A stretch of DNA of 64,000 bases from Candidatus Harrisonbacteria bacterium (GTDB lineage Bacteria; Patescibacteriota; Minisyncoccia; UBA6257; UBA11618): contig JAHFLN010000001.1 in assembly GCA_023244835.1 (NCBI GenBank), positions 4,912 through 68,911 on the forward strand, read 5' to 3'. The notes under the pieces are model-generated. The model was not told where the DNA came from. It worked only from the letters and a program-made list of their open reading frames with translations, and searched no databases. The position numbers and the translations under genes are program-made. Within the stretch, counting starts at the first letter, position 1; each line of letters begins with the position of its first letter. Below are positions 17,439-40,079 of this stretch, in pieces.

Positions 17439-18443
17439 TTAGTACGCTTCCGGAACCCCGTTTTTAATGCGTTTCAGCACTAGATCTCGGACGCTCGTTC
17501 CGTTCCCGTCGAACATACCCGAGCCGTCGATTCCCTCCTTCGTGCAGGCATAGTCGCCCTTACACGCGCCTGCCTTGGCGATGAGGAGTTCCGCCGACTG
17601 TTTCGAAAGCTCGTATATCGCCCCCTTGCCGATTTTGGCCATATCTCCTGGAAATGAATACGCGACTCCTTCTACCAAAGGACGGAGCGCCGGCAATTCG
17701 ACGGCGTAGGAAGAGAATACGGGCTGCGTTATGCCTAAATCCTTCAGTTTTTTCAATCCTTGCGCGAAGAAGAAGGAAATATCGGTCGAGAAAATCGCAT
17801 CGTATTCCGCTCCTTTGAGCTTTAGGAGGCCCGAGGAAATATCTTTTTCCGTGCCCGTGAATATGACTTCTTTCGCGATATGGTCCTCTCCGTACGCTTC
17901 TTTAAAACTATCCGCGAGGGTCTTTGAGAATGCGTTTTGGTAGGAAATAACGGCAACTTTCTCATATTTCAAAGTATCGTGCATCTGTCTCGCTAAGAAC
18001 GCCGCTTCGCTTTCCAGGGCATATTGCATGTCATACATATTCTCCCCGCTTTCCGCATAGAGCTTTTGCGAAGCGGCCGAAGGGACGACGGCGAGGATTT
18101 CAGCTCCCTTCATGAGTGGCGCGACTGCTTCCTGCGGCGAACCGCATGCGGGACCTATAATAAGGTTCACTTTGTCGAAATCGACTAGCTTCTTATACAC
18201 CGTTACGGCTTCTTTCGGATCGCATTTGTCATCTTCGTATATGAATTCGGCATCAGTGCCGCCGAATGACGCTTCTACCCCCTCTTTCATTTCCGCGCCG
18301 TAATCGGCGGCGATGCCCGAGAGCGGCGCGATCACGCCGATTCTGACTTTAATCCCATCCGCTTTTTTCGATGTGCGAAGTAACGCCATGTAACCGCCTA
18401 TCGCAACGACGATGATCGCGAGCCATAACCAGATGCTTTTCAT
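17439..18443 (-). CDS. ABC transporter substrate-binding protein, LivJ/Peripla_BP_6-like, N-terminal TM anchor
   Basis: MKSIWLWLAIIVVAIGGYMAL anchor; paralogous to 18448, 20031, 21170, 30416 and 34224. Confidence 0.8.
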   Translation of the reverse strand: MKSIWLWLAIIVVAIGGYMALLRTSKKADGIKVRIGVIAPLSGIAADYGAEMKEGVEASFGGTDAEFIYEDDKCDPKEAVTVYKKLVDFDKVNLIIGPACGSPQEAVAPLMKGAEILAVVPSAASQKLYAESGENMYDMQYALESEAAFLARQMHDTLKYEKVAVISYQNAFSKTLADSFKEAYGEDHIAKEVIFTGTEKDISSGLLKLKGAEYDAIFSTDISFFFAQGLKKLKDLGITQPVFSSYAVELPALRPLVEGVAYSFPGDMAKIGKGAIYELSKQSAELLIAKAGACKGDYACTKEGIDGSGMFDGNGTSVRDLVLKRIKNGVPEAY

Positions 18444-18447
18444 GGCC

Positions 18448-19521
18448 TTATTTGATTTCTTTTACGACGAACACGCCGTCCCCCCAGGCGGCATAGCCGC
18501 TTCCGTCGAAATTAATCGTGCCCGTCAGCCCTGCATAGTCCTTGACGGCGCGGATGCTGTTCGCGATTTCGTCAGATGTCTTCGCGCCTGCTTTGATCGC
18601 CGCGCCTACTAAAGACATCGCGTCATATGCCGTCTGCGTGCTTGGCGCGACCTCATCAGTCGAGCCGTACGCCTCTTTGAATTTTGCGCTCATCGCATCC
18701 GACATTGTGAAATCAACCATATAGGTTCCTGTGAGGATCGGAATGGTCGTTTCGTTGATCGTTTGTCCGCCCGGGTAGACTATGAGTGCCTTAATGCCTT
18801 GTTCCTTGGCTTTTTTTATGAATGGGATCGCCTGCGGCTGGACGAGATTTACTACGATGCTATCTGGCTTTTGCGCTTTGATTTTTGCGATCACCGTCCT
18901 AAAATCCTTCTCGTCCGGATTCGCTATATGCACGTCGTCCACGATTACTACGCCGTAGCCGGATGCAAGCTTTTTGACGTTTTCCGTAACCTTGTCCATG
19001 AAGGCGTTTGCCGTGGTTATGACAATCGCCTTCTTCATATTCCGATCTTTCGCGAATTTCAATTCCTGCTTCGCCCATCCTTCGTATGAGACGCCGAGCG
19101 AGAATACGTAGGGCTGATAGGACATATCGCTCAGGCCCGAGGGCGAGATCATCGCCACTTTCGCCTCTTTAGCTATCGGCGCGACTGCCTCGAACCATTC
19201 TGTCCATTGCGGTCCTATGATCGCAACTACCTTATCTATGCTTATGAGCTTTTGCGCGGCTGACACGCATTTCGGGATGTCCGACGCGCAGTCTTCCGAG
19301 ATAAGCCTGATATTCAGTCCGTCCGCCCGTAGTTCCTTCACGCGCAATGCGACGGCTTTCTCTTCCCCTACGCCCCACGAGCTTCCGAAGCCCGTCACGT
19401 TTGTTAACTGACCGATAACGATTTCCCTTTCTTCGGATGGGGTAATTTTTTTATCCGATAACGTAAGCCATCCACCCACTATCACCACCAGGACCGCGAG
19501 CCACAGCAAGGGATTTTTCAT
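18448..19521 (-). CDS. ABC transporter substrate-binding protein, LivJ-like paralog
   Basis: MKNPLLWLAVLVVIVGGWLTL anchor; Peripla_BP_6 pattern. Confidence 0.8.
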   Translation of the reverse strand: MKNPLLWLAVLVVIVGGWLTLSDKKITPSEEREIVIGQLTNVTGFGSSWGVGEEKAVALRVKELRADGLNIRLISEDCASDIPKCVSAAQKLISIDKVVAIIGPQWTEWFEAVAPIAKEAKVAMISPSGLSDMSYQPYVFSLGVSYEGWAKQELKFAKDRNMKKAIVITTANAFMDKVTENVKKLASGYGVVIVDDVHIANPDEKDFRTVIAKIKAQKPDSIVVNLVQPQAIPFIKKAKEQGIKALIVYPGGQTINETTIPILTGTYMVDFTMSDAMSAKFKEAYGSTDEVAPSTQTAYDAMSLVGAAIKAGAKTSDEIANSIRAVKDYAGLTGTINFDGSGYAAWGDGVFVVKEIK

Positions 19522-19546
19522 ATCCCCATGCTAGCTTCGGCATGCA

Positions 19547-19578
19547 TAAAAAACAAGCGGGGCGAAGGGCCCCGCTTG
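19547..19578 (-). terminator. Rho-independent terminator after ORF 19613..19948
   Basis: CAAGCGGGGC-GAAG-GGCCCCGCTTG plus T-run on minus. Confidence 0.6.
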
Positions 19579-19612
19579 GTACGGAAATCCATGATTACCG
19601 ATCCTTGCATGG

Positions 19613-19948
19613 TCAGAGATGCAGGGCGAGCGCGACCAGATTATGCTCGCGGCACAGATGCGTATCGCCAATCGCCGGAGCGTTCTTGCATGTCCAGCAC
19701 ATCTCATCATCGGGGGCATCGGGAGCTGATGCGATCAGGCTTTCCGCCTCTCTCACGTCATCAGGGCTAAGGAAGGGAATCGAATAGGTATTCAAGAGCA
19801 TCAACTGCAGGAGCCGCGAAGCCGCCGCATATTGCGCCTCGAGCTGGTCCGCCCGATTGTCATCCCCGAGCCAGAACACTTCTCGATCGCCCGCTCTCCC
19901 GACAACCGTAGGAAAGCCGCTTGCGTTAGGACCTCGTTCACGACTCAT
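19613..19948 (-). CDS. Hypothetical 111 aa protein
   Basis: ORF followed by its own terminator; GC-consistent codon usage. Confidence 0.4.
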   Translation of the reverse strand: MSRERGPNASGFPTVVGRAGDREVFWLGDDNRADQLEAQYAAASRLLQLMLLNTYSIPFLSPDDVREAESLIASAPDAPDDEMCWTCKNAPAIGDTHLCREHNLVALALHL

Positions 19949-20030
19949 ATGTCACCTCGTTTCGGTTTCGATTGGAATACAAGGGATTTCTCCCACTGCC
20001 GGACACGATACCACGAAACCAATGCGTCGC

Positions 20031-21152
20031 CTAGATATCCGTGAGCGCTCCCGCCTTGATGCGACGGACCGAGAATTCCCTCGCCGTATCGCCGTTCACA
20101 TCGATCGTAATCATGCCCGTGATGCCTTGGTATCCTTTCGTCGCATACAATGCATCGCGTACGCACGCCGATTCCGTGCCGCCGCATTTTCCGATCGCGT
20201 CGGCTAATACGTTATAGCCGTCAAACGGCAGGGCCGCATAGATTTCCTGGCTTGGCTTCTTTCCGTATGCCTTCTCGTATGCCGCCATATATTCCACGAA
20301 TGCCGGGGCTGAGGCATCGTACGCGTATTGCGTGATGTAGAACCCCTCCGCATCCGGGTTTACTACAACCTCCTTGAAGCCGAAGTATTCGTTGCCGAGC
20401 ACGGGGATCTTCAAGCCGAAGTCCTTGCCCTGCTTGATGAACGCATTCGCCGTCACGGTTGAATTCATCACTGCGACTATGATTTGCGGCTTCAAGGCCG
20501 CGAGTTTCGCGAGCTCTGTCCGCACGTCGTACTCCTTCGAATTCACGCCTTCCGCGCCCAGGATGGCATTCCCCGCTCTCGCTCCGAAGTCCGCGACGAA
20601 CGCGTCTTTCATGCCCACGGTATAGTCCGCATTCTCGAAAAGGATAGCGACGCTCTTATAACCTGCCTTCGCGAGGAATGCCGACATCGCTTTCGCGGTC
20701 GCGACGGACGATGCGGACGTGCGGAACACGTAGTCGCCCGCATCGGTAATCTTCGGCGAGGTAGAAACCGGCGTGAAGAGAACGGCCTTCGCGGTTTCGG
20801 TGATCGGCGCCATGGAAAGCATCGAACCGCTGCAGACGCCGTTCACCACTATCGAAACCTTATCGACGGCGAGGAGCTTCTGCGCCGCAGAGGCCGCCTG
20901 CTTGGGATCGCATGCGTCGTCTTCATATACCATTTCTACCTTCTTGCCGGCGATTTCCGGCCGCTCTAAGGCGGCGAGCTTCCAGCCGCTCGCAACATCC
21001 TCGCCGGACGATCCCGCAACCGGGCCGGTGAAGGGGCCGACATAGCCGATCTTAATCGTATCTGCTCCTGCGCCGTCCTTATTTCTTTTAAACGCCATAT
21101 AACCCCCGACTGCGACGATGATTATTACGACTATTATCCAGATTTGTTTCAT
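20031..21152 (-). CDS. ABC transporter substrate-binding protein, LivJ-like paralog
   Basis: MKQIWIIVVIIIVAVGGYMAF anchor. Confidence 0.8.
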   Translation of the reverse strand: MKQIWIIVVIIIVAVGGYMAFKRNKDGAGADTIKIGYVGPFTGPVAGSSGEDVASGWKLAALERPEIAGKKVEMVYEDDACDPKQAASAAQKLLAVDKVSIVVNGVCSGSMLSMAPITETAKAVLFTPVSTSPKITDAGDYVFRTSASSVATAKAMSAFLAKAGYKSVAILFENADYTVGMKDAFVADFGARAGNAILGAEGVNSKEYDVRTELAKLAALKPQIIVAVMNSTVTANAFIKQGKDFGLKIPVLGNEYFGFKEVVVNPDAEGFYITQYAYDASAPAFVEYMAAYEKAYGKKPSQEIYAALPFDGYNVLADAIGKCGGTESACVRDALYATKGYQGITGMITIDVNGDTAREFSVRRIKAGALTDI

Positions 21153-21169
21153 ATGATTCTTTCTTCGGC

Positions 21170-22309
21170 TTAATCAACCGGCACCGGCGCGTCGTTCCTG
21201 ATTTGCTTCATCACGAAGCCTAAGTCCGAGTTCCCATTCGCGTCGAGGGAGAACGTGCCCATCAAGCCCGTCCACTTCTTTATGTTTTCGAGGAGCCAAT
21301 CCTTCACTTTCGCGCTGTCGTCACCCTCCGCTCGCAAACCCACGACCATCATCATGATCGCGTCATGCGTTGCCGCGGCATGGAAGGCGATGAGCGGATC
21401 CCTCTCGTATTTCGCCTTATATGCCGCGAGAAAATCCTTCCACGCGGCGCTTTCGCCGTCATATGCGGGATCGGCGAAGTATAAGCCCTCGAACGAGCCG
21501 ACGATTTTCTTCGCGTCGCCGTTCAAGGCAAGCGTGAAGTCTGAAAAAAGCGGCGCATCCAGCTTTTGTTCCTTGACTTGCTTCATGAAATTGCCCGCGG
21601 AGAGCCCCGTCTGCGAGGCGATCAATATCGCATCGGCACCCCGCGCTTTCAGTTTCGCTATGATAGTGCGGAAATCGTTCGTCCCGGGCTGGAACTGCTC
21701 GTCTATCGCTATTGCGCCGCCGCCCGCCATGATCGTTTCCTTGAAGCTCTTCGCAATATCTAACGTATATTCAGTCACTTCGGAAACCGAGGCTACTTTC
21801 TTATAGCCCATCTTTAGCATCGCATTCGCGATGTCCCGGCCCGCCAGTATGTCAGAATTCGCTGTGCGGAAAATGTATTCGCCTGCGGCATCCACATTGC
21901 TTCCACCTGTTACCGGCGTCATCACGATCGCCTTGTTCTCGTTCGCGACAGGAGCCGCGGCGATCGTGCCGTTGCTACACATACCACCCACGATGTAGCG
22001 GATGCCGTCTACCGAGACGAGCTTCGTTATGGCCGCAAGACCGGTCTTACTGTCGCATTTCGAGTCTTCGACCGTGAGCTCGAGCGGGTGGCCGTTCACG
22101 CCTCCTTTGGTATTTATCTCGTCGATCGTGAGGCGGGCCGCATTCACCATATTCTCGCCCGCGACGGCCAGGTCTCCGCTCAATATCGTCGCGATGCCGA
22201 TTTTTATCGGCGCCGCATTCGCATCGAGAGGCGTCGCCTTGTCTTTATTAACTATCAGATATCCTCCCGCCACTATAACGACCGCGGCCCATATCCAGAG
22301 ATTTTTCAT
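21170..22309 (-). CDS. ABC transporter substrate-binding protein, LivJ-like paralog
   Basis: MKNLWIWAAVVIVAGGYLIV anchor. Confidence 0.8.
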   Translation of the reverse strand: MKNLWIWAAVVIVAGGYLIVNKDKATPLDANAAPIKIGIATILSGDLAVAGENMVNAARLTIDEINTKGGVNGHPLELTVEDSKCDSKTGLAAITKLVSVDGIRYIVGGMCSNGTIAAAPVANENKAIVMTPVTGGSNVDAAGEYIFRTANSDILAGRDIANAMLKMGYKKVASVSEVTEYTLDIAKSFKETIMAGGGAIAIDEQFQPGTNDFRTIIAKLKARGADAILIASQTGLSAGNFMKQVKEQKLDAPLFSDFTLALNGDAKKIVGSFEGLYFADPAYDGESAAWKDFLAAYKAKYERDPLIAFHAAATHDAIMMMVVGLRAEGDDSAKVKDWLLENIKKWTGLMGTFSLDANGNSDLGFVMKQIRNDAPVPVD

Positions 22310-30415: not shown

Positions 30416-31564
30416 CTATTTAAACGGAATAAATGCGCCATTTCTGACCGTTTTCAATTCGAACTCCCCACCCAAGACCTGATGCTTTTCGTCGAACCCC
30501 AAGTCGCCTATAAACGCTCCTTTAATGCGGACTTTCTCAAGCGCGTTCCGAATCTCCTGCCCGTTCTTCGCTCCTGATCCGATCGCGGCGACAATAATAC
30601 GAACCGCATCATACGCATTCACGGCCGCAGGCCCTTGCGGATCTTCATTGTATTTCGCCCGATACGTTTCCTTGAATGCTTTCTGCTCCTCGTTTGCCAC
30701 CGGGTAGGTATAAATCACACCGTCCATCGCCGACCCGAAACTCTCAAGCACACTTTCGTCCTGGATGTCCGCGGCAGAGAGTATTATCGCCCTGAATCCC
30801 AGCTCCTTCGCCTGTTTCAGGAAACTTGCCTTTGTGTGCGGAGCGAGAAAGGAAATGAATACAGCCTCGATATTCGCCGTCTTCATCTTCGCAATGACAG
30901 TTCTAAAGTCCTGGATACCCGTCGGCATTTCATGTTTCTCCCCTATCTGAATGCCGTGGAAAGGAGAGGCTTCCTCGAAAAGCCGCGTCATCATCGTGCT
31001 GTACGAGTCCTGATCCCACACCATCGCGACCTTCTTCAACTCCACTCGCTCGGCATAGGCCTCGAGCGCCGCTATTTCCTTCCGTTGGGGCGCGTACGTC
31101 GAGAAAATATAGTCGATTGACTGCTTCTGGAACTCTAGCGCTTCCATAGCAGTATCAGGCGACACAGCCGGGGTCATAGAGCCGTTTATGACCGGGCTCG
31201 CTCCCTGGTAGGCATCGCCCCATGTGGGACCGACGATCGCTATGACATGGTCGGCGTTCACAAGCTTCTGCACGGCATTCACCGTCGTCTTATTCTCGCA
31301 CTGCGTGTCCTCGATCATGAAATCGATCTTCTTGCCATTCACGCCGCCCGCAGCATTCGCCTCGTCGACCGCCATCTGCGCCGCCTTCTTCTCGCCCTCG
31401 CCCCACTCGGCGCATACGCCTGATAGGCCGAATGCCCCGCCGAGTCGTACCGTCGACAGGTCGTCCAACTCCGCGACTTTCGCTTCGCGGCGAGACATTA
31501 CTAAGCCAATTCCCACGACAAGCAGCATAACAATGAGCGCGATATAGAGAGAATTCCTTTTCAT
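30416..31564 (-). CDS. ABC transporter substrate-binding protein, LivJ-like, TM-anchored
   Basis: Peripla_BP_6 pattern; inside livFG-SBP-livMH operon. Confidence 0.82.
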   Translation of the reverse strand: MKRNSLYIALIVMLLVVGIGLVMSRREAKVAELDDLSTVRLGGAFGLSGVCAEWGEGEKKAAQMAVDEANAAGGVNGKKIDFMIEDTQCENKTTVNAVQKLVNADHVIAIVGPTWGDAYQGASPVINGSMTPAVSPDTAMEALEFQKQSIDYIFSTYAPQRKEIAALEAYAERVELKKVAMVWDQDSYSTMMTRLFEEASPFHGIQIGEKHEMPTGIQDFRTVIAKMKTANIEAVFISFLAPHTKASFLKQAKELGFRAIILSAADIQDESVLESFGSAMDGVIYTYPVANEEQKAFKETYRAKYNEDPQGPAAVNAYDAVRIIVAAIGSGAKNGQEIRNALEKVRIKGAFIGDLGFDEKHQVLGGEFELKTVRNGAFIPFK

Positions 31565-34223: not shown

Positions 34224-35429
34224 TTATTGCGGGGTGCTTGTCGCGGTAGTCGCGGCCATCATTTCCACCTTACCGCCCTTCACCACCTCGCCGCTGTAGC
34301 CGCTCTCGCGGTCGCCGTCCGGCTTGATCGTGATCGAGCCCGATGCGCCCTGCCAATCCTTCACGGTGCGGAACCAGTCCGCGAGCTTCGCGCCGTCGTC
34401 TCCCACGGCCATCAGGCCCTCTTTCGCCATATAAACGCCGTCGTACACGGTCTGGCCGTAGGACTTGAACGGCATATCAACACCGAACTTTGCTTTGTAG
34501 GCCTGATCCAATGCCGCGAACTTCGTATTCGCCGGGTCAACCGCGAATTCGGCCGCGAGCGCACCTTCCAAAATATCCTTGTATTTCTCGACCGTCGCGC
34601 GGTCGCCTACGAACGCCTCGTTCACGAGCATCTTCGGCTTCCACTTCAAGTCGACTAATTGCTTAATGACCCGCTCGCCGGATGCCGGCGTCTGCGCGTT
34701 CAGGAAGAGCGCGTCGGGCTTCGCCGCCTTTAACTTTGTAAGCATCGAGCGGAAATCGGTCGCGCTCGTCGGGAACTCCTCCTTCACCACCGTACCGCCT
34801 AATGCTTCGAACGAAGCGCTGAATGCCTTGAAGATGCCCAAGGGGTAGTCAAGCTGCTCCTGAATCATCGCGACCTTCTTCCAGCCTTTCGCGGCCGCGG
34901 CCTTCGCCAACACCTCGCCCTGCGTCGCGTCACTCGGATAGTCACGCACGAAGAAACGGCTCTTGCCCGTCAAGTCGGGACTGCTCGAGCCGGTCGAGAG
35001 CATGAGTACCTGGCCCGCCTCCGCGACCGGGATCGCCGCGAGCGATTCGCCACTGCAGAACCCGCCGAGAATGAAATGAACCTTGTCGACGTTTACCAGC
35101 TTCTGCGCCGCGCTCGTCGCGTCCTTACCGCTGCACTTACCATCTTCATAAATAACTTCGAGCGGCCGGCCATTTACGCCACCCGCGGCGTTGATTTCTT
35201 CAACCGCGAGCATGACGACGTTCCGCTTCATTTCCCCATATGACGCGCCATCGCCCGACAAGGGAGCGATGAAACCGATCTTAAGCGGCTCGACAGCCAC
35301 CGGAACCGTGCTCGTCGCGACGGTCTCCTCAACCGGCGCTTCAGCAGGCGCGCCGAGCATGGCGTACCCCGCCCATGCGACCACGCCCAACACGACGACC
35401 CATATAATAGCTTTCGCTGTAGTGTTCAT
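34224..35429 (-). CDS. ABC transporter substrate-binding protein, LivJ-like, TM-anchored
   Basis: Peripla_BP_6 pattern. Confidence 0.82.
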   Translation of the reverse strand: MNTTAKAIIWVVVLGVVAWAGYAMLGAPAEAPVEETVATSTVPVAVEPLKIGFIAPLSGDGASYGEMKRNVVMLAVEEINAAGGVNGRPLEVIYEDGKCSGKDATSAAQKLVNVDKVHFILGGFCSGESLAAIPVAEAGQVLMLSTGSSSPDLTGKSRFFVRDYPSDATQGEVLAKAAAAKGWKKVAMIQEQLDYPLGIFKAFSASFEALGGTVVKEEFPTSATDFRSMLTKLKAAKPDALFLNAQTPASGERVIKQLVDLKWKPKMLVNEAFVGDRATVEKYKDILEGALAAEFAVDPANTKFAALDQAYKAKFGVDMPFKSYGQTVYDGVYMAKEGLMAVGDDGAKLADWFRTVKDWQGASGSITIKPDGDRESGYSGEVVKGGKVEMMAATTATSTPQ

Positions 35430-35547
35430 AGTGCCTTCATACTACCCAAGCCATGATGTCCGTCAATATGGACAAAACGCACTATAATCATCGTAATTAC
35501 GCCTGATTGAACGAATCGGCAGGGCACGATATACTGAACCCGCCGAA

Positions 35548-35635
35548 GGAGGGGTCGCATAGCGGCCTAGTGCACCATCTTGGAAAGGTGGCATACCGAA
35601 AGGTATCGAGGGTTCGAATCCCTCCCCCTCCGCCA
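35548..35635 (+). tRNA. tRNA-Ser (anticodon GGA), class II with long variable arm, CCA encoded
   Basis: Acceptor GGAGGGG/CCCCTCC; anticodon stem CCATC/GGTGG; loop TTGGAAA; T-loop GGTTCGAATCC; TTGAAC-17-TATACT promoter upstream. Confidence 0.85.
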
Positions 35636-35656
35636 GATTGGCAACTTTGAACCAAT

Positions 35657-36430
35657 ATGAATACATGGACTAAAAAGAGTATAGAACTGGCGCGTAAACC
35701 GGGATATTTAGATGCCTTGGGCGCTATTTATGTTATGAATATAAATCCTAGTAGACCACTAACGGAAGAAGTTGAGAAAAAAATACGAGAGGCTTTCCAT
35801 AATAGAAAAAATAAAGAGTTAGTTCATCTGTTAATTCAAAACGAAGTCTTTCCGGTCAAGGATTCTTATGTCGGATTTTTAAGACTTAACCCTGCGGCTA
35901 TTGATCAAAATCCGATAACTATCAATAGAATATCAGAAAGGCTTTACTCATTGGGGATTGAAGCACTTCTTAAGGAGGCAACTCGTCCTAAAGAGACAAA
36001 TCGTCAACTCGGACACTCATTCAAAAAATGGTTGCCTCAATTAGGTTATCCCGTACTTAATGTAGAAGAGTTTGCCAATACTCGAGGTGTGGCCATCCTT
36101 GCCGGTGGGGACGCACAACTTGCAAAATACGCTAGAGAGAAGTTGGGCTGTGAATTATCCAAAGGTATTGATTTTGTTTTAAAGAAAGGAAAGAATCATA
36201 TTATTGGTGAAGCTAAATTTCTTACAACTCCTGGAGGAGAGCAAGATCGAGGTTTTGATGACGCATCAAATTTTATTAAAGGAAAATTGCGCCCAAATGT
36301 GAAAAGAATAGCTGTTTTGGATGGCTATATCTGGGTAGAACGAACTGGTGGGCTCCACAATAAGATCGTGATGAACAACCTTGATATTTTTAGTGCTCTA
36401 CTCCTTCCCGAATATATTAAAAAGTTTTAG
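35657..36430 (+). CDS. Putative type II restriction endonuclease, PD-(D/E)xK-like
   Basis: AT-rich gene beginning 22 bp after the tRNA; candidate GIDFV...IIGEAKF catalytic motif; convergent with and overlapping the methyltransferase stop. Confidence 0.5.
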   Translation: MNTWTKKSIELARKPGYLDALGAIYVMNINPSRPLTEEVEKKIREAFHNRKNKELVHLLIQNEVFPVKDSYVGFLRLNPAAIDQNPITINRISERLYSLGIEALLKEATRPKETNRQLGHSFKKWLPQLGYPVLNVEEFANTRGVAILAGGDAQLAKYAREKLGCELSKGIDFVLKKGKNHIIGEAKFLTTPGGEQDRGFDDASNFIKGKLRPNVKRIAVLDGYIWVERTGGLHNKIVMNNLDIFSALLLPEYIKKF

Positions 36431-38187
36431 GTTGCAGAATAAACCTCAAAAGAAGCTTTTAATTTAGCTCCTTCTTTTTCTATAAGACTAATAGCATTTT
36501 TATTGAGGTCTATTCCTATCCAATTTCTTTTTAGTTCTTCAGCGGCTAGTAGAGTAGTACCCGACCCCGCAAAACAATCCAAAACCAAGTCGTCTTGCGT
36601 TGTAGAGCTCTGAATAATTTGTTTCAATAAGTCTCGATTTTTCTGTGTTGGGTAAAGAGAGCTCTCGAAACCAGGATCTTTAAAGTCCCACACGTCCTGA
36701 AGTTTCTTGCCTCGGTTTTCGTCTGCGTAGATTTTTTTTCGAGGATTCCCTGAACTAGACCACTCAATCAATCCTTCTTTATCTAGGCGTGTTAATTCTT
36801 CAGGGTTATATCTCCAATGCCTTCCTTTCGGTGGGAGCATGCCTTTCCATTCTCTGCCCGTAGGACCATTTCGTGTCTCTCCTTTAGCGTGAAGAGGTGT
36901 GGTGGCATACCTACGCCCTTTTTTGTCAATCTTGGGAAATTGTTTTATGATCTCCTCCTCAGTTAAGGCTATACGATGGTCCGTCCAAGACATTGGGTCA
37001 TGTCCATTTGGTTTTGATTTGGAATAAAAATATATTACATCTTTTATGTTCCCGAAAGCTTTCCTATCGAAATTTTTTGGATTACATTTTATTCTGGTAA
37101 TGTCATTTCTAAAATTTTCCTCTCCGAATACTTCGTCCATTAATACTTTTACATAATGTCCTATTTTCTGATCAATATGGAGGTATATGCTACCTGTTTC
37201 GGAAAGTAATTCTCTAAGAAGGATCAGTCTTTTTCTTAAAAACTCAAGGAAATCTGTGTTTGTAAGTTTGTCGCTATAAAAGTTTTCTTCGTTATAACCA
37301 ACAAAATCTTGCCCTGTACCAAAAGGTGGATCGATATAAATTAATTCGATATTGCCCTTTATATTTTTATTTTCATACAAATTCTTAAGAACACTGAGAT
37401 TGTCGCCTGCAATTAATTTATTTACAGACTTTGATCCATATTTCTTAGTAAGTTTAAGTTGAGCCGCTTTGATTTCAAGAACTTCTTCTTCCTTTATTTT
37501 TCCTCGATAAATCAACTCAGCTCCTCCTTTAGGACGACGTGCATGAGGAATCGTATGAAGAATATTTTCTGCTCTCTCCCTCTCGGAATATCTTTCGTTG
37601 GATTTAATAATATCTATAACTACACCTTGGATAGTTAACCGTTCAGGTTCAATAAAAAGAGGTAGCATTGTTTGGTTCGCAGGCTGTAGCCGTATCCTAT
37701 TTTTCTCCCTAAAAAACTTTTTAAGTGTGGCGGACTCCTGATCAATCAAAGCAACAACTTTTTGACCATTGTGTGCTACCGATTGACTCTGAATCAACAC
37801 AATGTCTCCATCGTTGATATTCTCATCAATCATACTATCGCCATACACACGTAGAGCGTAAACATCACTACTTTTAGGCATTTTCGATTTCGGGATAGCG
37901 ATTGTCTCCTTTTCTTGAATTGCTTCAATTGGCTCGCCTGCAGCAATAGTACCCAGGAGAGGAATGCTTACCAGGGGTTCGCCAGAGGAAATACTTATAG
38001 AACGTGCTTTATTTTCAGATTTATCCAAATATCCACTATCTCGTAGTTTGTTTATATGAAAATGTGCAGTAGAAACAGAGGCAAGTTTAAAATGCCTCTG
38101 TATTTCCTCTAAGGAGGGGGCATACCCTTTCTTTTTGGAAGACTCTTTTACGAAATCGAAGACCTCTTTTTGCTTTTTGGTGAGCAT
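36427..38187 (-). CDS. LexA-like repressor (HTH plus S24 peptidase) fused to beta-class amino-DNA methyltransferase (DPPF ... FAGSGTT)
   Basis: N-terminal ~205 aa align to LexA (IAAGEPI cleavage site, LRVYGDSM Ser, DGDIVLI, NGQKVVALID, TLKKF Lys); C-terminal motif IV IDPPF then motif I DCFAGSGTT. Confidence 0.8.
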   Translation of the reverse strand: MLTKKQKEVFDFVKESSKKKGYAPSLEEIQRHFKLASVSTAHFHINKLRDSGYLDKSENKARSISISSGEPLVSIPLLGTIAAGEPIEAIQEKETIAIPKSKMPKSSDVYALRVYGDSMIDENINDGDIVLIQSQSVAHNGQKVVALIDQESATLKKFFREKNRIRLQPANQTMLPLFIEPERLTIQGVVIDIIKSNERYSERERAENILHTIPHARRPKGGAELIYRGKIKEEEVLEIKAAQLKLTKKYGSKSVNKLIAGDNLSVLKNLYENKNIKGNIELIYIDPPFGTGQDFVGYNEENFYSDKLTNTDFLEFLRKRLILLRELLSETGSIYLHIDQKIGHYVKVLMDEVFGEENFRNDITRIKCNPKNFDRKAFGNIKDVIYFYSKSKPNGHDPMSWTDHRIALTEEEIIKQFPKIDKKGRRYATTPLHAKGETRNGPTGREWKGMLPPKGRHWRYNPEELTRLDKEGLIEWSSSGNPRKKIYADENRGKKLQDVWDFKDPGFESSLYPTQKNRDLLKQIIQSSTTQDDLVLDCFAGSGTTLLAAEELKRNWIGIDLNKNAISLIEKEGAKLKASFEVYSAT

Positions 38188-38242
38188 ATTGATATTATAG
38201 AAAATAAATAGAAAGTATACAAATCAAGTTATCCACAAGGTC

Positions 38243-39238
38243 ATGGCAAAGCATCACATCGTTCAAGACAAATATCTCACTCAATGGAGAAAAAGCGGAA
38301 CAGAAAATCAGCTCAATATTTATGTTATTCATGAAAATCAAATTATAGAAAGAGGACCGGGATGGAAGGGTTTTTGGAGAGATGATTTTAATGTGCTTGA
38401 AGATGACGGTGAAAAGTCCTACCTCCCAGAGGAAGTTACGGTAATTATTGATACAAAGGGTATTGAAGCTGTCAGGAAAATAAATACTACAAGCGAAGAA
38501 TTATTATCAGGTATGGATAGGAGTTGCGTAGCTTTTTATACGGCATTGCAGTACACAAGAACTCCGCGACACAGAGAGGAAACAAACAAATTGATCGAAG
38601 CTACTACCCGACATTTTATGAGAAAAGACCTTCCATCACCAGATAAGGTGCATATGTCCAAAGATAAGATACTCGAGTATAACCCACAGAATAAAATGGA
38701 GGAGGATGCTCTGGATGTGATAAGTAAGATGACGCAAGAGGAAATCAACTCACAGATTTTTAAGGCAATACACGATGATACAGTCAGGATCGGCCTTACA
38801 AAGACAGGCCACTCAAAAGGCATTCTGAAAGTAGATCGTCATGCCGAGAAGATATTTGAAATGCAGTGGCTATTCCTAGTAACTCCTGAGGGTACGTCCT
38901 TCATTACCTCGGATAGCCCTTGTTTTACAATATCCACATCGAAACTGAATGGGCTAATATCGCCTCACTCAACGGTATATTTCCCATTAAGACCAGATAT
39001 ATGTCTTTACATAAAACCGAGCATGAAATCAAAAGCAGAATACTATATGAAGTTAGATAAGGGACAGGTTAGGGATATAAATTCACTGATACTCTCAAAC
39101 AGTACCCAATGTGCAGTTGCCAAGGACAAAATACATTTAGAGAAACTGACCAAGAACTTCGATTACAAAAACCACAGAAAGTCACGCGTTATATCTATTA
39201 GCGAATCGGGGCCATACACAATGTTTACCGCAGAATAG
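38243..39238 (+). CDS. DUF4238-like protein
   Basis: N-terminal KHHIVQDKYLTQW matching the DUF4238 HhxPQxYL motif; AT-rich; adjacent to R-M pair. Confidence 0.5.
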   Translation: MAKHHIVQDKYLTQWRKSGTENQLNIYVIHENQIIERGPGWKGFWRDDFNVLEDDGEKSYLPEEVTVIIDTKGIEAVRKINTTSEELLSGMDRSCVAFYTALQYTRTPRHREETNKLIEATTRHFMRKDLPSPDKVHMSKDKILEYNPQNKMEEDALDVISKMTQEEINSQIFKAIHDDTVRIGLTKTGHSKGILKVDRHAEKIFEMQWLFLVTPEGTSFITSDSPCFTISTSKLNGLISPHSTVYFPLRPDICLYIKPSMKSKAEYYMKLDKGQVRDINSLILSNSTQCAVAKDKIHLEKLTKNFDYKNHRKSRVISISESGPYTMFTAE

Positions 39239-39479
39239 TAAATTAACCTGAGTAGCCTGTATATTTTAGGCTAGACAGAATAATCAACTGCATTTTGCCC
39301 TATATCTGACTTTGGCTTCGGTACTTCAAACCATTCAGGGTGGACTTTGTAGATAACCCTTAGTTTCTGTATACTTTTATCAAGATCCTCGAATTTGAGC
39401 CGTACTTTTGGTTCAAAGTTACGGGCATCGTCCCCGCCTAATGCAAAAGAGATGGCCTTGCGCCATCCCCTTTTGCATT

Positions 39480-39600
39480 AGATGTGATGGCTTGGAGAGG
39501 ATTCGAACCGAAGGTCCCCTATTTTCAAGGAGGCTTACAGCCGACTATGAAAATAGCGGCCTCGACCGAAGGAAGAGGCGAATCCCCCCCGCCCTTGCAT
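39480..39600. other. Degenerate tRNA-like remnant(s) at far edge of island
   Basis: Plus strand ATAGCGGCCT..ACCGAAGGAAGAGGCGAATCCCCCCCGCCC resembles tRNA-Ser D-loop, variable arm and 3' end; minus strand carries a GGTTCGAATCC T-loop-like motif. Confidence 0.4.
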
Positions 39601-39614
39601 TACTCCTCTTTAAC

Positions 39615-40079
39615 TTAATCCTTCCCAGACTTCGCGCTTATTCCATCGCGTACGATACCCTCAAGCACTGCCGCCGTACTGGCAGCAATGATAGAGCCGA
39701 AGGCAACGAGAAGTCCTATAGCAACCCCGCCTGCCCGGTCATCGCTCGTGTTCAGCATAATGAATACTTCCCCTACCGCGACGAAGCCAATGATAACAAA
39801 GGCGCACCGCCTAATAGTCCGCATGGCATTTACGACTTGTTGCGAAAACGCCTTACCCTCTCGGATATATCGGAGCGCCGTGAATGCCTGATAGAGCGCC
39901 GTGAAAAACGCGATTGATCCTATATAAGCGAATAGTATGAAAGGATCGGAATACATTTCGAAATTCGTGGCGTTCGCGTTCACGCCCTCGACGCGAGGTT
40001 CCCATACGAGAAACGCAAGCGCGCCAATGCCGATAAGCATGATGACTGCTTGAAGAAATATCGTCGGGCCTTTTTTCAT
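39615..40079 (-). CDS. Hypothetical polytopic membrane protein
   Basis: Four predicted TM helices; start chosen at MKKGPTIF. Confidence 0.5.
   Translation of the reverse strand: MKKGPTIFLQAVIMLIGIGALAFLVWEPRVEGVNANATNFEMYSDPFILFAYIGSIAFFTALYQAFTALRYIREGKAFSQQVVNAMRTIRRCAFVIIGFVAVGEVFIMLNTSDDRAGGVAIGLLVAFGSIIAASTAAVLEGIVRDGISAKSGKD

What the first reader, a model, noticed from the sequence alone, without database searches (positions are those of the whole stretch)
35636..39600. AT-rich defence island inserted directly 3' of tRNA-Ser(GGA): REase + LexA-MTase + DUF4238-like, with tRNA-like remnant at the far edge
Base composition drops sharply from ~60% GC to clearly AT-rich exactly at the 3' end of the tRNA (35635) and recovers near 39450-39600. 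The island carries a convergent restriction endonuclease/methyltransferase pair whose stops overlap by 4 bp (36427-36430), plus a DUF4238-like gene. No integrase is present, so the element appears immobilised. A degenerate copy of the tRNA-Ser D-loop/3' region (ATAGCGGCCT...CGAATCCCCCCCGCCC) lies at 39550-39597, as expected for an attR-type partial duplication.
Basis: partly seen in the sequence, partly recalled or inferred. Interest (0 to 1): 0.72.

Follow-up and report, generated by a model that had tools for sequence, protein, structure and literature searches.

The report
Mobile defence gene cassette at tRNA-Ser
A 3.8-kb AT-rich block carrying a restriction-modification pair and a second anti-phage gene lies directly after a serine tRNA gene of an uncultivated ultra-small (Patescibacteria) bacterium, and other metagenomes show it belongs to an apparently undescribed family of recombinase-less gene cassettes that repeatedly land at serine tRNA genes.

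Summary
The island is real. GC is 38% against 56% for the rest of the window, starting at the base after tRNA-Ser(GGA). It carries a Tsp45I-family endonuclease, a convergent LexA-S24-methyltransferase fusion (stops overlap by 4 bp) and a DUF4238 gene, a known single-gene anti-T7 defence. No integrase was found anywhere in the window.

The true right edge is 39438, not 39600. It is a conserved 55-codon small ORF ending in CCCCGCC, which mimics the tRNA end CTCCGCCA.

The same endonuclease/methylase pair (80-94% nt identity) occurs in hosts whose GroEL is only 55-60% identical. It always sits 21-22 nt after a tRNA-Ser, but at GGA, GCT and TGA genes, or at tRNA 3' fragments.

The small ORF has 100 homologue clusters. 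Every context examined has a co-oriented tRNA-Ser 2-4.5 kb away with variable, often defence, cargo between. The two cassette arms are inverted repeats that co-vary, and tandem arrays show exact end-core-end junctions.

Best reading: a non-autonomous cassette inserted at the tRNA-Ser 3' end by an unidentified enzyme supplied in trans. The methylase probably auto-represses through its LexA module. Its cleavage site and Ser/Lys dyad are invariant, which suggests SOS-responsive control.

The parts
35507..35535 (+). sigma-70-like promoter of tRNA-Ser (TTGAAC-17-TATACT). It is the only promoter-like site upstream of the endonuclease gene.
   Evidence: sequence
35548..35635 (+). tRNA-Ser(GGA). Its last 8 nt, CTCCGCCA (35628-35635), are the insertion point (attL core).
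35636..35656 (+). Left cassette arm (P'), GATTGGCAACTTTGAACCAAT. It contains inverted-repeat arm 35643-35655 and runs straight into the endonuclease ATG. It is 100% identical in L063/L071/L072 although the coding DNA is only 80% identical.
   Evidence: (I12)
35657..36430 (+). Type II restriction endonuclease, Tsp45I family (257 aa)
   Evidence: PF06300, 1e-68; PADLOC REase_II, 1e-50
36427..38187 (-). LexA winged-helix + S24 self-cleaving peptidase + beta-class N6/N4 DNA methyltransferase fusion (586 aa). Features: A83-G84 cleavage site, S118/K156 dyad, DPPF and FAGSG motifs.
38188..38242 (-). Methylase promoter/operator block. -10 TATAAT at 38194-38199, which leaves the mRNA essentially leaderless. 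Two TTTCTAT repeats 11 nt apart (38208-38214 and 38197-38203). TGTGGATAA at 38229-38237. The block is conserved in six other LexA-methylase loci, including a TaqI-type system.
38243..39238 (+). DUF4238 protein (331 aa). Single-gene anti-phage defence family. Variable cargo of this cassette.
   Evidence: 5e-27; literature; cargo variation
39271..39438 (-). Conserved small ORF of the cassette family (55 codons plus stop; GGDDARNFEPK...VDYSV*). It has no start codon in this window. Its 5' part is the right cassette arm (P), with inverted-repeat arm 39408-39420.
39432..39438 (+). Right-end core CCCCGCC, which mimics the tRNA-Ser 3' end. Homology with other cassettes stops here.
39439..39481 (.). 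Strong hairpin just outside the cassette (-24.7 kcal/mol, z -7.9)
39494..39594 (+). Structured inverted-repeat unit. The 5' arm GGAGAGGATTCGAACC is the reverse complement of the tRNA-Ser 3' end, and the 3' arm CGAATCCCCCCCGCCC is a degenerate direct copy. Host-like GC.

Best explanation
Bases 35636-39438 are a horizontally acquired, non-autonomous gene cassette inserted at the 3' end (…CCGCCA) of tRNA-Ser(GGA).

Family anatomy (shown). It belongs to a Patescibacteria-wide cassette family with a fixed layout:
- a short left arm, (G/A)ATTGGCAACTTTGAAC, directly after the tRNA end;
- cargo genes mostly co-oriented with the tRNA;
- a convergent, conserved 55-aa ORF whose first codons form the right arm, an inverted copy of the left arm;
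- a terminal CCCCGCC(A) core that resembles the tRNA end.

Insertion (inferred). A closed or tandem form carries the palindromic site GGTTCAAAGTT-N26-AACTTTGAACC, centred on the core. This site recombines with the tRNA-Ser end. The enzyme is not encoded by the cassette and is presumably a host or helper recombinase or transposase.

Cargo. The cargo here is defence:
- a Tsp45I-family endonuclease with no promoter of its own, probably read through from the tRNA promoter (inferred);
- a convergent methylase transcribed from its own near-leaderless promoter;
- DUF4238.

Regulation (inferred). The methylase's N-terminal LexA module probably binds the conserved promoter block and represses its own gene, as SsoII-type methylases do. 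The Ala-Gly cleavage site and Ser/Lys dyad are strictly conserved. RecA-stimulated self-cleavage after DNA damage, including damage from under-methylation, would therefore release repression and raise methylase levels.
For: Foreign origin:
- GC is 0.38 against 0.56 for the rest of the window.
- The R-M pair is 80-94% nt identical in L061-L072, whose flanks are unrelated. REase/MTase are 85-98% aa identical (pN 0.01-0.08), whereas GroEL of the L063/L064 R-M host and of the L083 and L086 small-ORF cassette hosts is 55-60% identical to the window's (pN 0.28-0.31).
- The cassette stays at GC 0.37-0.41 in hosts whose flanks are 0.44-0.56.

Targeting:
- The endonuclease ATG lies 21-22 nt after tRNA-Ser(GGA), Ser(GCT) and Ser(TGA) genes. 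In L061 and L067/68 it lies after bare tRNA 3' fragments, with the intact Ser(CGA) gene about 430 nt upstream in L067/68.
- The junction CCGCCA|GATTGGCAACTTTGAAC is conserved.

Right end:
- L069, L070, L083 and L086 share window 39277-39441, and homology ends at the core.

Small ORF:
- There are 100 homologue clusters. Conservation always starts at GGDD, and the N-termini are unrelated.
- Variable sites per codon position are 22/20/44 and median dN/dS is 0.17.

Contexts:
- Four contexts chosen without regard to the tRNA (L083, L085, L086, L090) and four others all have a co-oriented tRNA-Ser 2-4.5 kb away, with variable cargo between.

Arms:
- The window has a perfect 13-nt inverted repeat exactly at both edges.
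- The arms co-vary between cassettes: L085 and L070 carry GATGTCC..AAGTT.. in both arms.
- L081 and L082 show exact arm-core-arm junctions, and L081 is a two-cassette tandem array.

No recombinase.

LexA module:
- TIGR00498 scores 184 bits against a cutoff of 111. PDB LexA matches reach 7e-36.
- A83, G84, S118, K156, DPP and FxGxG are invariant in 22 fusions of 42-87% identity.
- The promoter block is conserved across Tsp45I-type and TaqI-type systems.
- Auto-repression by methylases with an N-terminal HTH is established (PMC3874152).

DUF4238: it protects E. coli against T7 (PMC9122126).

Promoters: the only promoter-like site upstream of the REase is the tRNA promoter.
Against: - No empty site was found in a close relative. 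The nearest genome (L004) ends 68 nt after its tRNA-Ser, and every contig found by exact protein look-up carries the island.
- No circular or excised form was seen, and no enzyme was identified.
- The identity between the tRNA end and the cassette core is only 6-8 nt.
- The small ORF has no start codon in the window, and its role is unknown. The AF2 model shows one helix at pLDDT 72.
- Cargo between the methylase and the small ORF varies without any recognisable internal junction, so other recombination processes also act.
- The operator, self-cleavage, co-transcription with the tRNA and enzyme specificity are all inferred. There is no GTSAC avoidance in the host DNA.
Confidence: 0.62

Rival explanations
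1. Recombination hot-spot rather than a site-specific element. The tRNA-Ser gene and the small ORF are conserved anchors. Cargo is swapped between genomes by homologous recombination of incoming (for example transformed) DNA across these two anchors. No dedicated recombinase is involved.
For: - No recombinase was found in any locus.
- Both anchors are highly conserved at the nucleotide level: the small ORF segment is 80-86% identical between distant hosts.
- Cargo between the methylase and the small ORF varies without internal junctions.
Against: - The same R-M pair sits at three different tRNA-Ser isoacceptor genes (GGA, GCT, TGA) and at bare tRNA 3' fragments, and homology begins only 15-40 nt inside the tRNA.
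- The small ORF is AT-rich in a GC-rich host and is more similar between hosts than GroEL, so it moves with the cargo.
- Exact arm-core-arm junctions and tandem arrays exist.
- The left and right arms co-vary.
Confidence: 0.2
2. This is a classical integrase-borne tRNA island that lost its integrase and is now a fixed remnant. The degenerate tRNA copy at 39550-39597 is its attR.
For: - A degenerate tRNA-Ser-like stretch exists at 39550-39594.
- Analogous units in L067 and L083 carry exact copies of the local tRNA 3' end.
- There is no integrase.
Against: - Homology with all related cassettes stops at 39438, and GC returns to host level there.
- In other loci the tRNA-like unit lies between the tRNA and the cassette, so it is a separate module.
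- None of ten related loci retains an integrase or a remnant of one, yet the cassette has clearly spread recently: REase is 98% aa identical with pS 0.14 against L068.
Confidence: 0.08
3. Targeted transposition. The cassettes are non-autonomous, TIR-bounded elements (MITE- or PATE-like) moved by a transposase encoded elsewhere. That transposase inserts 3' of the CCGCCA motif.
For: - Terminal inverted repeats of 13 nt (up to about 24 nt in L070) co-vary between cassettes.
- Insertion is always immediately 3' of CCGCCA, and the element's own right end repeats that motif. This pattern is known from IS200/IS605-type elements (own knowledge).
Against: - The flanking repeat is not a true target-site duplication, because the right copy is element-borne and differs from the local tRNA end.
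- The ends are mutual inverted repeats rather than subterminal hairpins.
- No transposase was seen in the window or the related loci.
Confidence: 0.1

Closest known systems
tRNA-gene-targeting genomic islands / integrative elements (Islander-type, tyrosine-integrase islands)
   Same: Atypical composition. Insertion exactly at the 3' end of a tRNA gene, which stays intact. A short repeat of the tRNA end at the far edge. Defence cargo. Tandem arrays at one tRNA.
   Different: No integrase in any member examined. The repeat is only 6-8 nt. The ends are co-varying inverted repeats. The distal end is a conserved 55-aa ORF. One cassette type uses several tRNA-Ser isoacceptor genes.
Integron gene cassettes and attC arrays (including integrase-less CALINs)
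   Same: Small, recombinase-less cassettes with variable cargo. Genes mostly co-oriented and apparently promoter-less behind a strong upstream promoter. Imperfect palindromic recombination site split between cassette ends. Arrays.
   Different: The platform is a tRNA-Ser gene, not attI/intI. The site sequence and polarity differ from attC (GTT...AAC here, against RYYYAAC...GTTRRRY). Each cassette carries a conserved ORF. No IntI was found.
SsoII/Ecl18kI/EcoRII/MspI-type R-M systems, whose methylase represses its own promoter through an N-terminal HTH (PMC3874152)
   Same: A DNA-binding domain fused to the N-terminus of the methylase. A conserved sequence block overlapping the methylase promoter. 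Sister methylases of the same family carry HTH_17 instead.
   Different: The DNA-binding module is a complete LexA (winged helix plus S24 peptidase with intact cleavage site and dyad). This adds a potential RecA/SOS-triggered off-switch that is not described for R-M systems in the literature searched.
LexA / lambda CI / UmuD family of self-cleaving S24 proteins
   Same: Passes the NCBIfam lexA equivalog cut-off (184 bits against 111). Aligns end to end with the LexA crystal structures. The Ala-Gly site, Ser nucleophile and Lys base are conserved.
   Different: A 390-aa DNA methyltransferase follows the S24 domain. The gene is cassette-borne, not the host SOS regulator. The candidate operator is a direct repeat (TTTCTAT x2), not a known SOS box.
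DUF4238 single-gene anti-phage system (P2 hot-spot, Rousset et al. 2022, PMC9122126)
   Same: Full-length Pfam DUF4238 match. Located in a defence hot-spot next to an R-M system.
   Different: No PADLOC model hit. Only distantly related to characterised members. Activity untested.

Membership tests
Type II restriction-modification system | Endonuclease of a known type II family | tested here: met
   PF06300 Tsp45I 1e-68 over the full length; PADLOC REase_II 1e-50
Type II restriction-modification system | Adjacent DNA methyltransferase with catalytic (DPPY/F) and SAM-binding (FxGxG) motifs | tested here: met
   PF01555 4e-51; PADLOC MTase_II 5e-148. DPPF (286-289) and FAGSG (539-543) are invariant in 22 homologues.
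Type II restriction-modification system | Matching sequence specificity of the two enzymes; cleavage blocked by methylation | not testable with these tools
   No GTSAC depletion in the host DNA. Needs a methylome or enzymology.
Methylase-autoregulated R-M (SsoII type) | N-terminal DNA-binding domain on the methylase | tested here: met
   PF01726 LexA_DNA_bind 4e-17 at residues 2-62
Methylase-autoregulated R-M (SsoII type) | Operator overlapping the methylase promoter, bound by the methylase | tested here: inconclusive
   A conserved promoter block with two TTTCTAT repeats over the -10 region occurs in 7 loci. Binding was not tested.
LexA family (S24 self-cleaving repressor) | Winged-helix DBD plus S24 domain with Ala-Gly site and Ser/Lys dyad | tested here: met
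   TIGR00498 184 bits, above the 110.95 cut-off. Alignment to 3k2z/1jhh. A83, G84, S118 and K156 are invariant.
LexA family (S24 self-cleaving repressor) | RecA*-stimulated self-cleavage and control of an SOS regulon | not testable with these tools
   Inference only. The gene is cassette-borne.
tRNA-targeting integrative genomic island | Intact tRNA gene at one end, atypical composition | tested here: met
tRNA-targeting integrative genomic island | Island-encoded integrase | tested here: not met
   None in the island, in the rest of the window ORFs tested, or in ten related loci
tRNA-targeting integrative genomic island | Direct repeat of the tRNA 3' part at the distal end | tested here: inconclusive
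   There is only a 7-8-nt core (CCCCGCC against CTCCGCCA) at 39432-39438. A longer degenerate tRNA-like stretch lies 140 nt further out, in a separate unit.
tRNA-targeting integrative genomic island | Presence/absence polymorphism (empty site) | tested here: inconclusive
   No empty site for this host was found. The same cassette occurs at other tRNA-Ser genes in other hosts. In L070 the cassette end is followed by AAAATTCGGAAT, the same words that follow the tRNA-Ser CCA in L004.
Integron cassette | attC site (RYYYAAC...GTTRRRY hairpin) and IntI/attI platform | tested here: not met
   The arm sequence and polarity differ. There is no integrase. The platform is a tRNA gene.
TIR transposon / MITE | Terminal inverted repeats | tested here: met
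   A 13-nt perfect inverted repeat lies at both edges. The arms co-vary.
TIR transposon / MITE | Target-site duplication identical on both sides | tested here: not met
   The right-hand copy is conserved within the element and differs from the local tRNA end.
DUF4238 defence system | DUF4238 domain over the full length | tested here: met
   PF14022 5e-27, residues 3-296 of 331
DUF4238 defence system | Anti-phage activity | not testable with these tools
   Shown only for an E. coli P2-hot-spot homologue (PMC9122126)

The most novel reading that the evidence does not exclude
Patescibacteria have an integron-like gene-capture system built on tRNA-Ser genes. Promoter-less cassettes are bounded by co-varying inverted arms and a conserved 55-aa ORF. 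An as yet unidentified trans-acting enzyme inserts them, singly or in arrays, at the CCGCCA end of any tRNA-Ser gene or at tRNA-end decoys. They are expressed by tRNA read-through and serve as the main vehicle for exchanging defence genes between these tiny genomes. The LexA-methylase is a new SOS-sensing controller of restriction-modification.
Probability: 0.4. Interest if true: 0.85.

Novelty: new variant of a known kind. Interest (0 to 1): 0.7.

Why it matters
Candidate-phyla-radiation bacteria have genomes of about 1 Mb, few recognised mobile elements and little CRISPR. How they acquire and exchange defence genes is poorly understood.

This locus gives a concrete, sequence-defined vehicle: arms, core, a conserved small ORF and the tRNA-Ser target. 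That vehicle can be searched for in any metagenome and tested in vitro. It would also point to a recombinase or transposase with a new specificity.

Separately, a complete self-cleaving LexA fused to a restriction-modification methylase is conserved across dozens of lineages and at least two endonuclease families. It suggests a direct link between DNA damage and methylation level. That would be a new solution to the autoimmunity and establishment problem of R-M systems.

Tried and rejected
1. ARAGORN and Rfam (E<=10) on 39480-39600 and on the analogous units in four loci found no family.
3. Empty-site search:
   - Exact-protein look-ups of the methylase, DUF2975, NUDIX and PBP returned only the same strain with the island.
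   - The closest genome, L004 (PBP 96% aa), ends 68 nt after its tRNA.
   - More distant relatives have no synteny.
4. Phage vector: neither the endonuclease nor the small ORF is found in IMG/VR, apart from one weak hit (43% identity) without a tRNA. There is no fused LexA-methylase in the phage or plasmid collections.
5. Pfam, PHROGs and PADLOC on the small ORF, and PADLOC and NCBIfam on DUF4238, gave nothing usable. The AF2 model of the small ORF is a single helix and too uninformative for fold search.
6. GTSAC avoidance in the host DNA showed no signal.
7. The small ORF as a non-coding att arm or RNA was rejected because of the codon-position pattern and dN/dS of 0.17.
8. Integron attC and IS200/605-type ends were considered, and defining features were not met. 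Known SOS boxes (GAAC-N4-GTTC, CTGT-N8-ACAG) are not present in the methylase promoter (reading).
9. Literature searches for LexA/S24-methylase fusions and for tRNA-Ser cassettes in CPR returned nothing relevant.

Full report
**Observation**

The window is a chromosomal stretch of a Parcubacteria/Paceibacterota (candidate phyla radiation) bacterium. It comes from a 290-kb metagenome contig. The rest of the window holds a ribosomal-protein operon, SecY, EF-Tu/EF-G, GroES/EL and several periplasmic binding proteins.

- ARAGORN and Rfam find one tRNA, Ser(GGA), at 35548-35635.
- GC drops from 0.56-0.62 to 0.31-0.45 at the next base.
- The block 35636-39436 has GC 0.381 and the rest of the window 0.560. 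No other 3.8-kb window falls below 0.526.
They are a Tsp45I-family endonuclease (35657-36430, +), a 586-aa LexA_DNA_bind + Peptidase_S24 + N6_N4_Mtase protein (36427-38187, -) whose stop overlaps that of the endonuclease by 4 bp, and a full-length DUF4238 protein (38243-39238, +).
- No integrase, recombinase or transposase domain occurs in these ORFs, in the genes within 10 kb, or in 30 further ORFs of the window.

**The far edge**

Its best local alignment to the tRNA scores no better than about 14 other places in the window.

A repeat search instead found a perfect 13-nt inverted repeat, AACTTTGAACCAA. One arm lies at 35643-35655, inside the 21-nt spacer between the tRNA and the endonuclease ATG. 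The other lies at 39408-39420. These are the only two copies in the window, even when two mismatches are allowed.

**The same R-M pair elsewhere**

Look-ups of close homologues of the methylase, plus a metagenome scan with the endonuclease, returned loci with 80-94% nucleotide identity to 35600-38190 and no similarity in the flanks.

- In every case the endonuclease ATG lies 21-22 nt after the CCA end of a serine tRNA, through the conserved junction CCGCCA|GATTGGCAACTTTGAAC.
- The tRNA is Ser(GGA) in L063-66/L071/L072, Ser(GCT) in L069 and Ser(TGA) in L070.
- In L061/62 and L067/68 the cassette abuts only a 3' tRNA fragment. In L067/68 the intact Ser(CGA) gene lies about 430 nt upstream.
- The endonuclease and methylase are 85-98% identical in protein (pN 0.01-0.08). 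GroEL of the L063/L064 R-M host, and of the L083 and L086 hosts that share the window's small-ORF segment, is only 55-60% identical to the window's (pN 0.28-0.31).
- The pair keeps GC 0.37-0.41 in hosts whose flanks range from 0.44 to 0.56.

This is recent horizontal transfer between deeply divergent hosts, each time to a tRNA-Ser 3' end.

**The right end and the small ORF**

L069, L070, L083 and L086 also match window 39277-39441 (80-86% nt). Homology stops at ...GGGCATCGTCCCCGCC (39438), which is where GC returns to host level. The cargo between the methylase promoter and this segment differs between loci:

- DUF4238 in the window;
- DUF1508 + DUF2130 in L061-66;
- an unknown 426-aa protein in L069;
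- nothing in L070.

On the minus strand the segment encodes 55 codons (GGDDARNFEPKVRLKFEDLDKSIQKLRVIYKVHPEWFEVPKPKSDIGQNAVDYSV*) with no start codon in the window.

- A protein search found 100 homologous clusters, all 36-97 aa and all from Patescibacteria-type sources. Conservation begins abruptly at GGDD, and the N-termini are unrelated.
- The sequence is genuinely coding. Variable sites per codon position are 22/20/44, and median dN/dS is 0.17.
- No Pfam or PHROG family matches.

**Contexts of the small ORF**

Four homologues were chosen without regard to any tRNA: L083, L085 and L086 for contig length, and L090 as the most divergent hit. Two more (L081, L082) were chosen for a peculiar N-terminus. 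All have a tRNA-Ser (GGA, GCT or CGA) 2-4.5 kb away in the expected orientation. The cargo genes between are mostly co-oriented with the tRNA. The cargo includes:

- a TaqI-family endonuclease with a shorter LexA-S24-methylase (L085);
- an HTH controller, EcoRI-type methylase, GmrSD/HNH and another DUF4238 (L090);
- a protease plus a methyltransferase, histidine phosphatases and a NUDIX hydrolase.

None of the loci encodes a recombinase.

**Arms, core and junctions**

Aligning all ends shows the two arms:

- Left arm, directly after CCGCCA: (G/A)ATTGGC-AACTTTGAACC.
- Right arm, reverse complement, directly after GGCGGG: GA(C)GATGCCCG(G/T)-AACTTTGAACC.

The arms are inverted repeats, and they change together. 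L085 has GATGTCC-AAGTTAGAACC in both arms. L070 has GATGTCC-AAGTTTGA(A/C)CC in both.

L081 and L082 contain the two arms joined through the core: GTTCAAAGTTGCCAATC-TGGCGGG-(A/G)A(C/T)GATG...AA(C/G)TTTGAAC. L081 is a tandem array of two cassettes, each with its own small ORF.

Joined in this way, the window's ends would form a 52-bp palindromic site centred on CC|CCGCCA. The identity between cassette core and tRNA end is 6-8 nt.

tRNA-Ser genes that directly abut a cassette read ...CCGCCA. Those separated from it (L067, L081, L082, L083, L090) do not encode CCA. This is consistent with the cassette supplying the last bases.

**The tRNA-like unit**

Between the intact tRNA and the gene cassette, L067 (twice), L081, L082 and L083 carry a hairpin followed by a 100-170-nt unit. 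The 5' arm of this unit is the reverse complement of the local tRNA 3' end, and its 3' arm is a copy of that end.

The window has the same pair of elements after the cassette: a hairpin at 39439-39481 (z -7.9) and a unit at 39494-39594 (z -3.8). These units look like gene-less mini-cassettes or decoy ends. I cannot explain them further.

**The methylase fusion**

- The N-terminal 200 residues pass the NCBIfam lexA equivalog cut-off (184 against 111 bits). They align end to end with the LexA crystal structures (3k2z 7e-36; E. coli 1jhh 9e-24).
- In 22 fusions of 42-87% identity, the cleavage site A83-G84, the nucleophile S118, the base K156 and the methylase motifs DPP(F) and FxGxG are all invariant.
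- At least 56 protein clusters have this architecture. NCBI names them 'transcriptional repressor LexA'.
- Sister methylases carry an HTH_17 domain instead.
- No fused form exists in the phage or plasmid collections. Marinitoga phage MPV1 has a CI-like repressor and a methylase as neighbouring separate genes.
- Upstream of the fusion gene, the block GTGGATAA(G/C)T...TTGAYTTTCTATTTTYTTTCTATTATAC is conserved in window, L061, L067, L069, L070 and the TaqI-type L085. L063 keeps the GTGGATAA box but carries the TTTCTAT segment inverted. Two TTTCTAT repeats 11 nt apart overlie the -10 element. In the window the -10 lies 6 nt before the ATG, so the mRNA is essentially leaderless.
- Auto-repression by methylases with N-terminal HTH domains is established for SsoII-type systems (PMC3874152). 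A LexA/S24 version was not found in the literature I could search.

**How it most likely works**

Shown:
- The cassette is foreign.
- It targets tRNA-Ser ends.
- It has co-varying inverted arms, a tRNA-like core and a conserved coding small ORF.
- It carries no recombinase.
- The methylase has an intact LexA module and a conserved promoter block.
- DUF4238 is a member of a family with demonstrated anti-T7 activity (PMC9122126).

Inferred:
- Insertion occurs by site-specific recombination, or by targeted transposition, of an arm-core-arm site with the CCGCCA end, catalysed in trans.
- The endonuclease is expressed by read-through from the tRNA promoter (35507-35535, the only promoter-like site upstream of it). 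It would therefore become active only after integration.
- The methylase is expressed early from its own promoter, then represses itself through the LexA module.
- RecA-stimulated self-cleavage during DNA damage relieves repression and raises methylation.

**Rivals**

- Hot-spot exchange by homologous recombination between the tRNA and the small ORF. This is hard to reconcile with the use of different isoacceptor genes, the exact junctions and the arm co-variation.
The comparative end-points contradict it.
- A MITE-like element moved by a distant transposase. This is possible, but there is no true target duplication.

**Limits**

- No empty site was found in a near relative. L004's contig ends 68 nt after its tRNA. 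Its trailer, AAAATTCGGAAT, is the same as the sequence that follows the cassette end in L070.
- No circular form was seen and no enzyme was identified.
- All regulatory steps are untested.

**Verdict**

An R-M island next to a tRNA is ordinary in itself. The anatomy uncovered by comparison is not described in the literature I could search. This applies both to the recombinase-less, arm-bounded cassette family homing to tRNA-Ser genes and to the self-cleaving LexA-methylase. I rate the finding as a new variant of known kinds (tRNA-targeting islands, integron-like cassettes, methylase-autoregulated R-M), interest 0.7.

Noticed in passing
window 39439-39594; L067 2105-2511; L081 4480-4700; L082 12915-13057; L083 12340-12488: A hairpin is followed by a 100-170-nt structured unit. 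Its 5' arm is the reverse complement of the local tRNA-Ser 3' end and its 3' arm is a copy of it. L067 has two units in tandem. In the related loci the unit lies between the tRNA and the gene cassette; in the window it lies after the cassette. There is no Rfam family. It may be a gene-less mini-cassette or a decoy insertion site.
   Followed up: partly
window 38192-38217 vs L063 2581-2606 (also L064-66): A 26-nt piece of the methylase promoter (ACTTTCTATTTATTTTCTATAATAT) is present at 96% identity but in the opposite orientation in the L063-66 cassettes. The cause (small inversion?) and the effect on expression are unknown.
   Followed up: no
window 38229-38237 (-) and the equivalent position in L061, L063, L067, L069, L070, L085: TGTGGATAA, the reverse complement of the DnaA-box consensus TTATCCACA, is conserved just upstream of every LexA-methylase promoter examined. 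It could be part of the operator or a real DnaA site.
   Followed up: no
L085 10001-13496 (Candidatus Yanofskybacteria, GCA_016185545.1): This is a second kind of R-M cassette of the same family. It runs tRNA-Ser(CGA), TaqI-family endonuclease, 507-aa LexA-S24-methylase, a 292-aa protein, then the small ORF. The LexA-methylase module therefore pairs with at least two unrelated endonuclease families.
   Followed up: partly
L090 10001-14579 (Candidatus Vogelbacteria, GCA_001824825.1): This cassette at tRNA-Ser(CGA) carries an HTH controller, a Ymh protein, an EcoRI-type methylase, GmrSD/HNH and a DUF4238. That DUF4238 is only 21% identical to the window's. It again sits next to the small ORF.
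   Followed up: partly
L004 1-960 (Parcubacteria Ike-150m-21, closest genome): An extra 248-aa ORF lies between the binding-protein gene and tRNA-Ser(GGA) and is absent from the window. The tRNA trailer AAAATTCGGAAT equals the sequence that follows the cassette end in L070. The contig ends 68 nt after the tRNA.
   Followed up: partly
L089 1-165; L003; Logan contigs of SRR14366769/72: Short-read assemblies of the same strain break inside the tRNA, with a G-to-A difference in the anticodon stem at the break. They also break at both ends of the endonuclease/methylase pair. This hints at alternative arrangements or extra copies of the cassette in those samples.
   Followed up: partly
L087 9990-10140 (IMG/VR UViG_3300025154_002045): This is the only viral-collection hit to the small ORF (43% identity over 40 residues). 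It is preceded by TGGCGGTGGCGATGTCCCGAAGTTAGAACC, and there is no tRNA within 10 kb.
   Followed up: no
window 39615-40079 (-) and L081 322-1056: A DUF2975 membrane-protein gene lies just outside the cassette in the window, in a region of GC 0.51 (somewhat below the host mean). In L081, a DUF2975 + HTH_3 pair is the cargo of the second cassette of a tandem array. The window's DUF2975 may therefore be the remains of an older cassette.
   Followed up: no
window 17439-22309, 30416-31564, 34224-35429: Six paralogous Peripla_BP_6 (branched-chain amino-acid type) binding-protein genes lie within 18 kb, next to one ABC transporter. This is an unusual expansion for a very small genome.
   Followed up: no
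phage record OZ018341.1 (Marinitoga phage MPV1) 39924-41465: A CI-like S24 repressor gene and a DNA methyltransferase gene lie side by side and together align to residues 72-583 of the fusion. This may be an unfused counterpart of the LexA-methylase.
   Followed up: no
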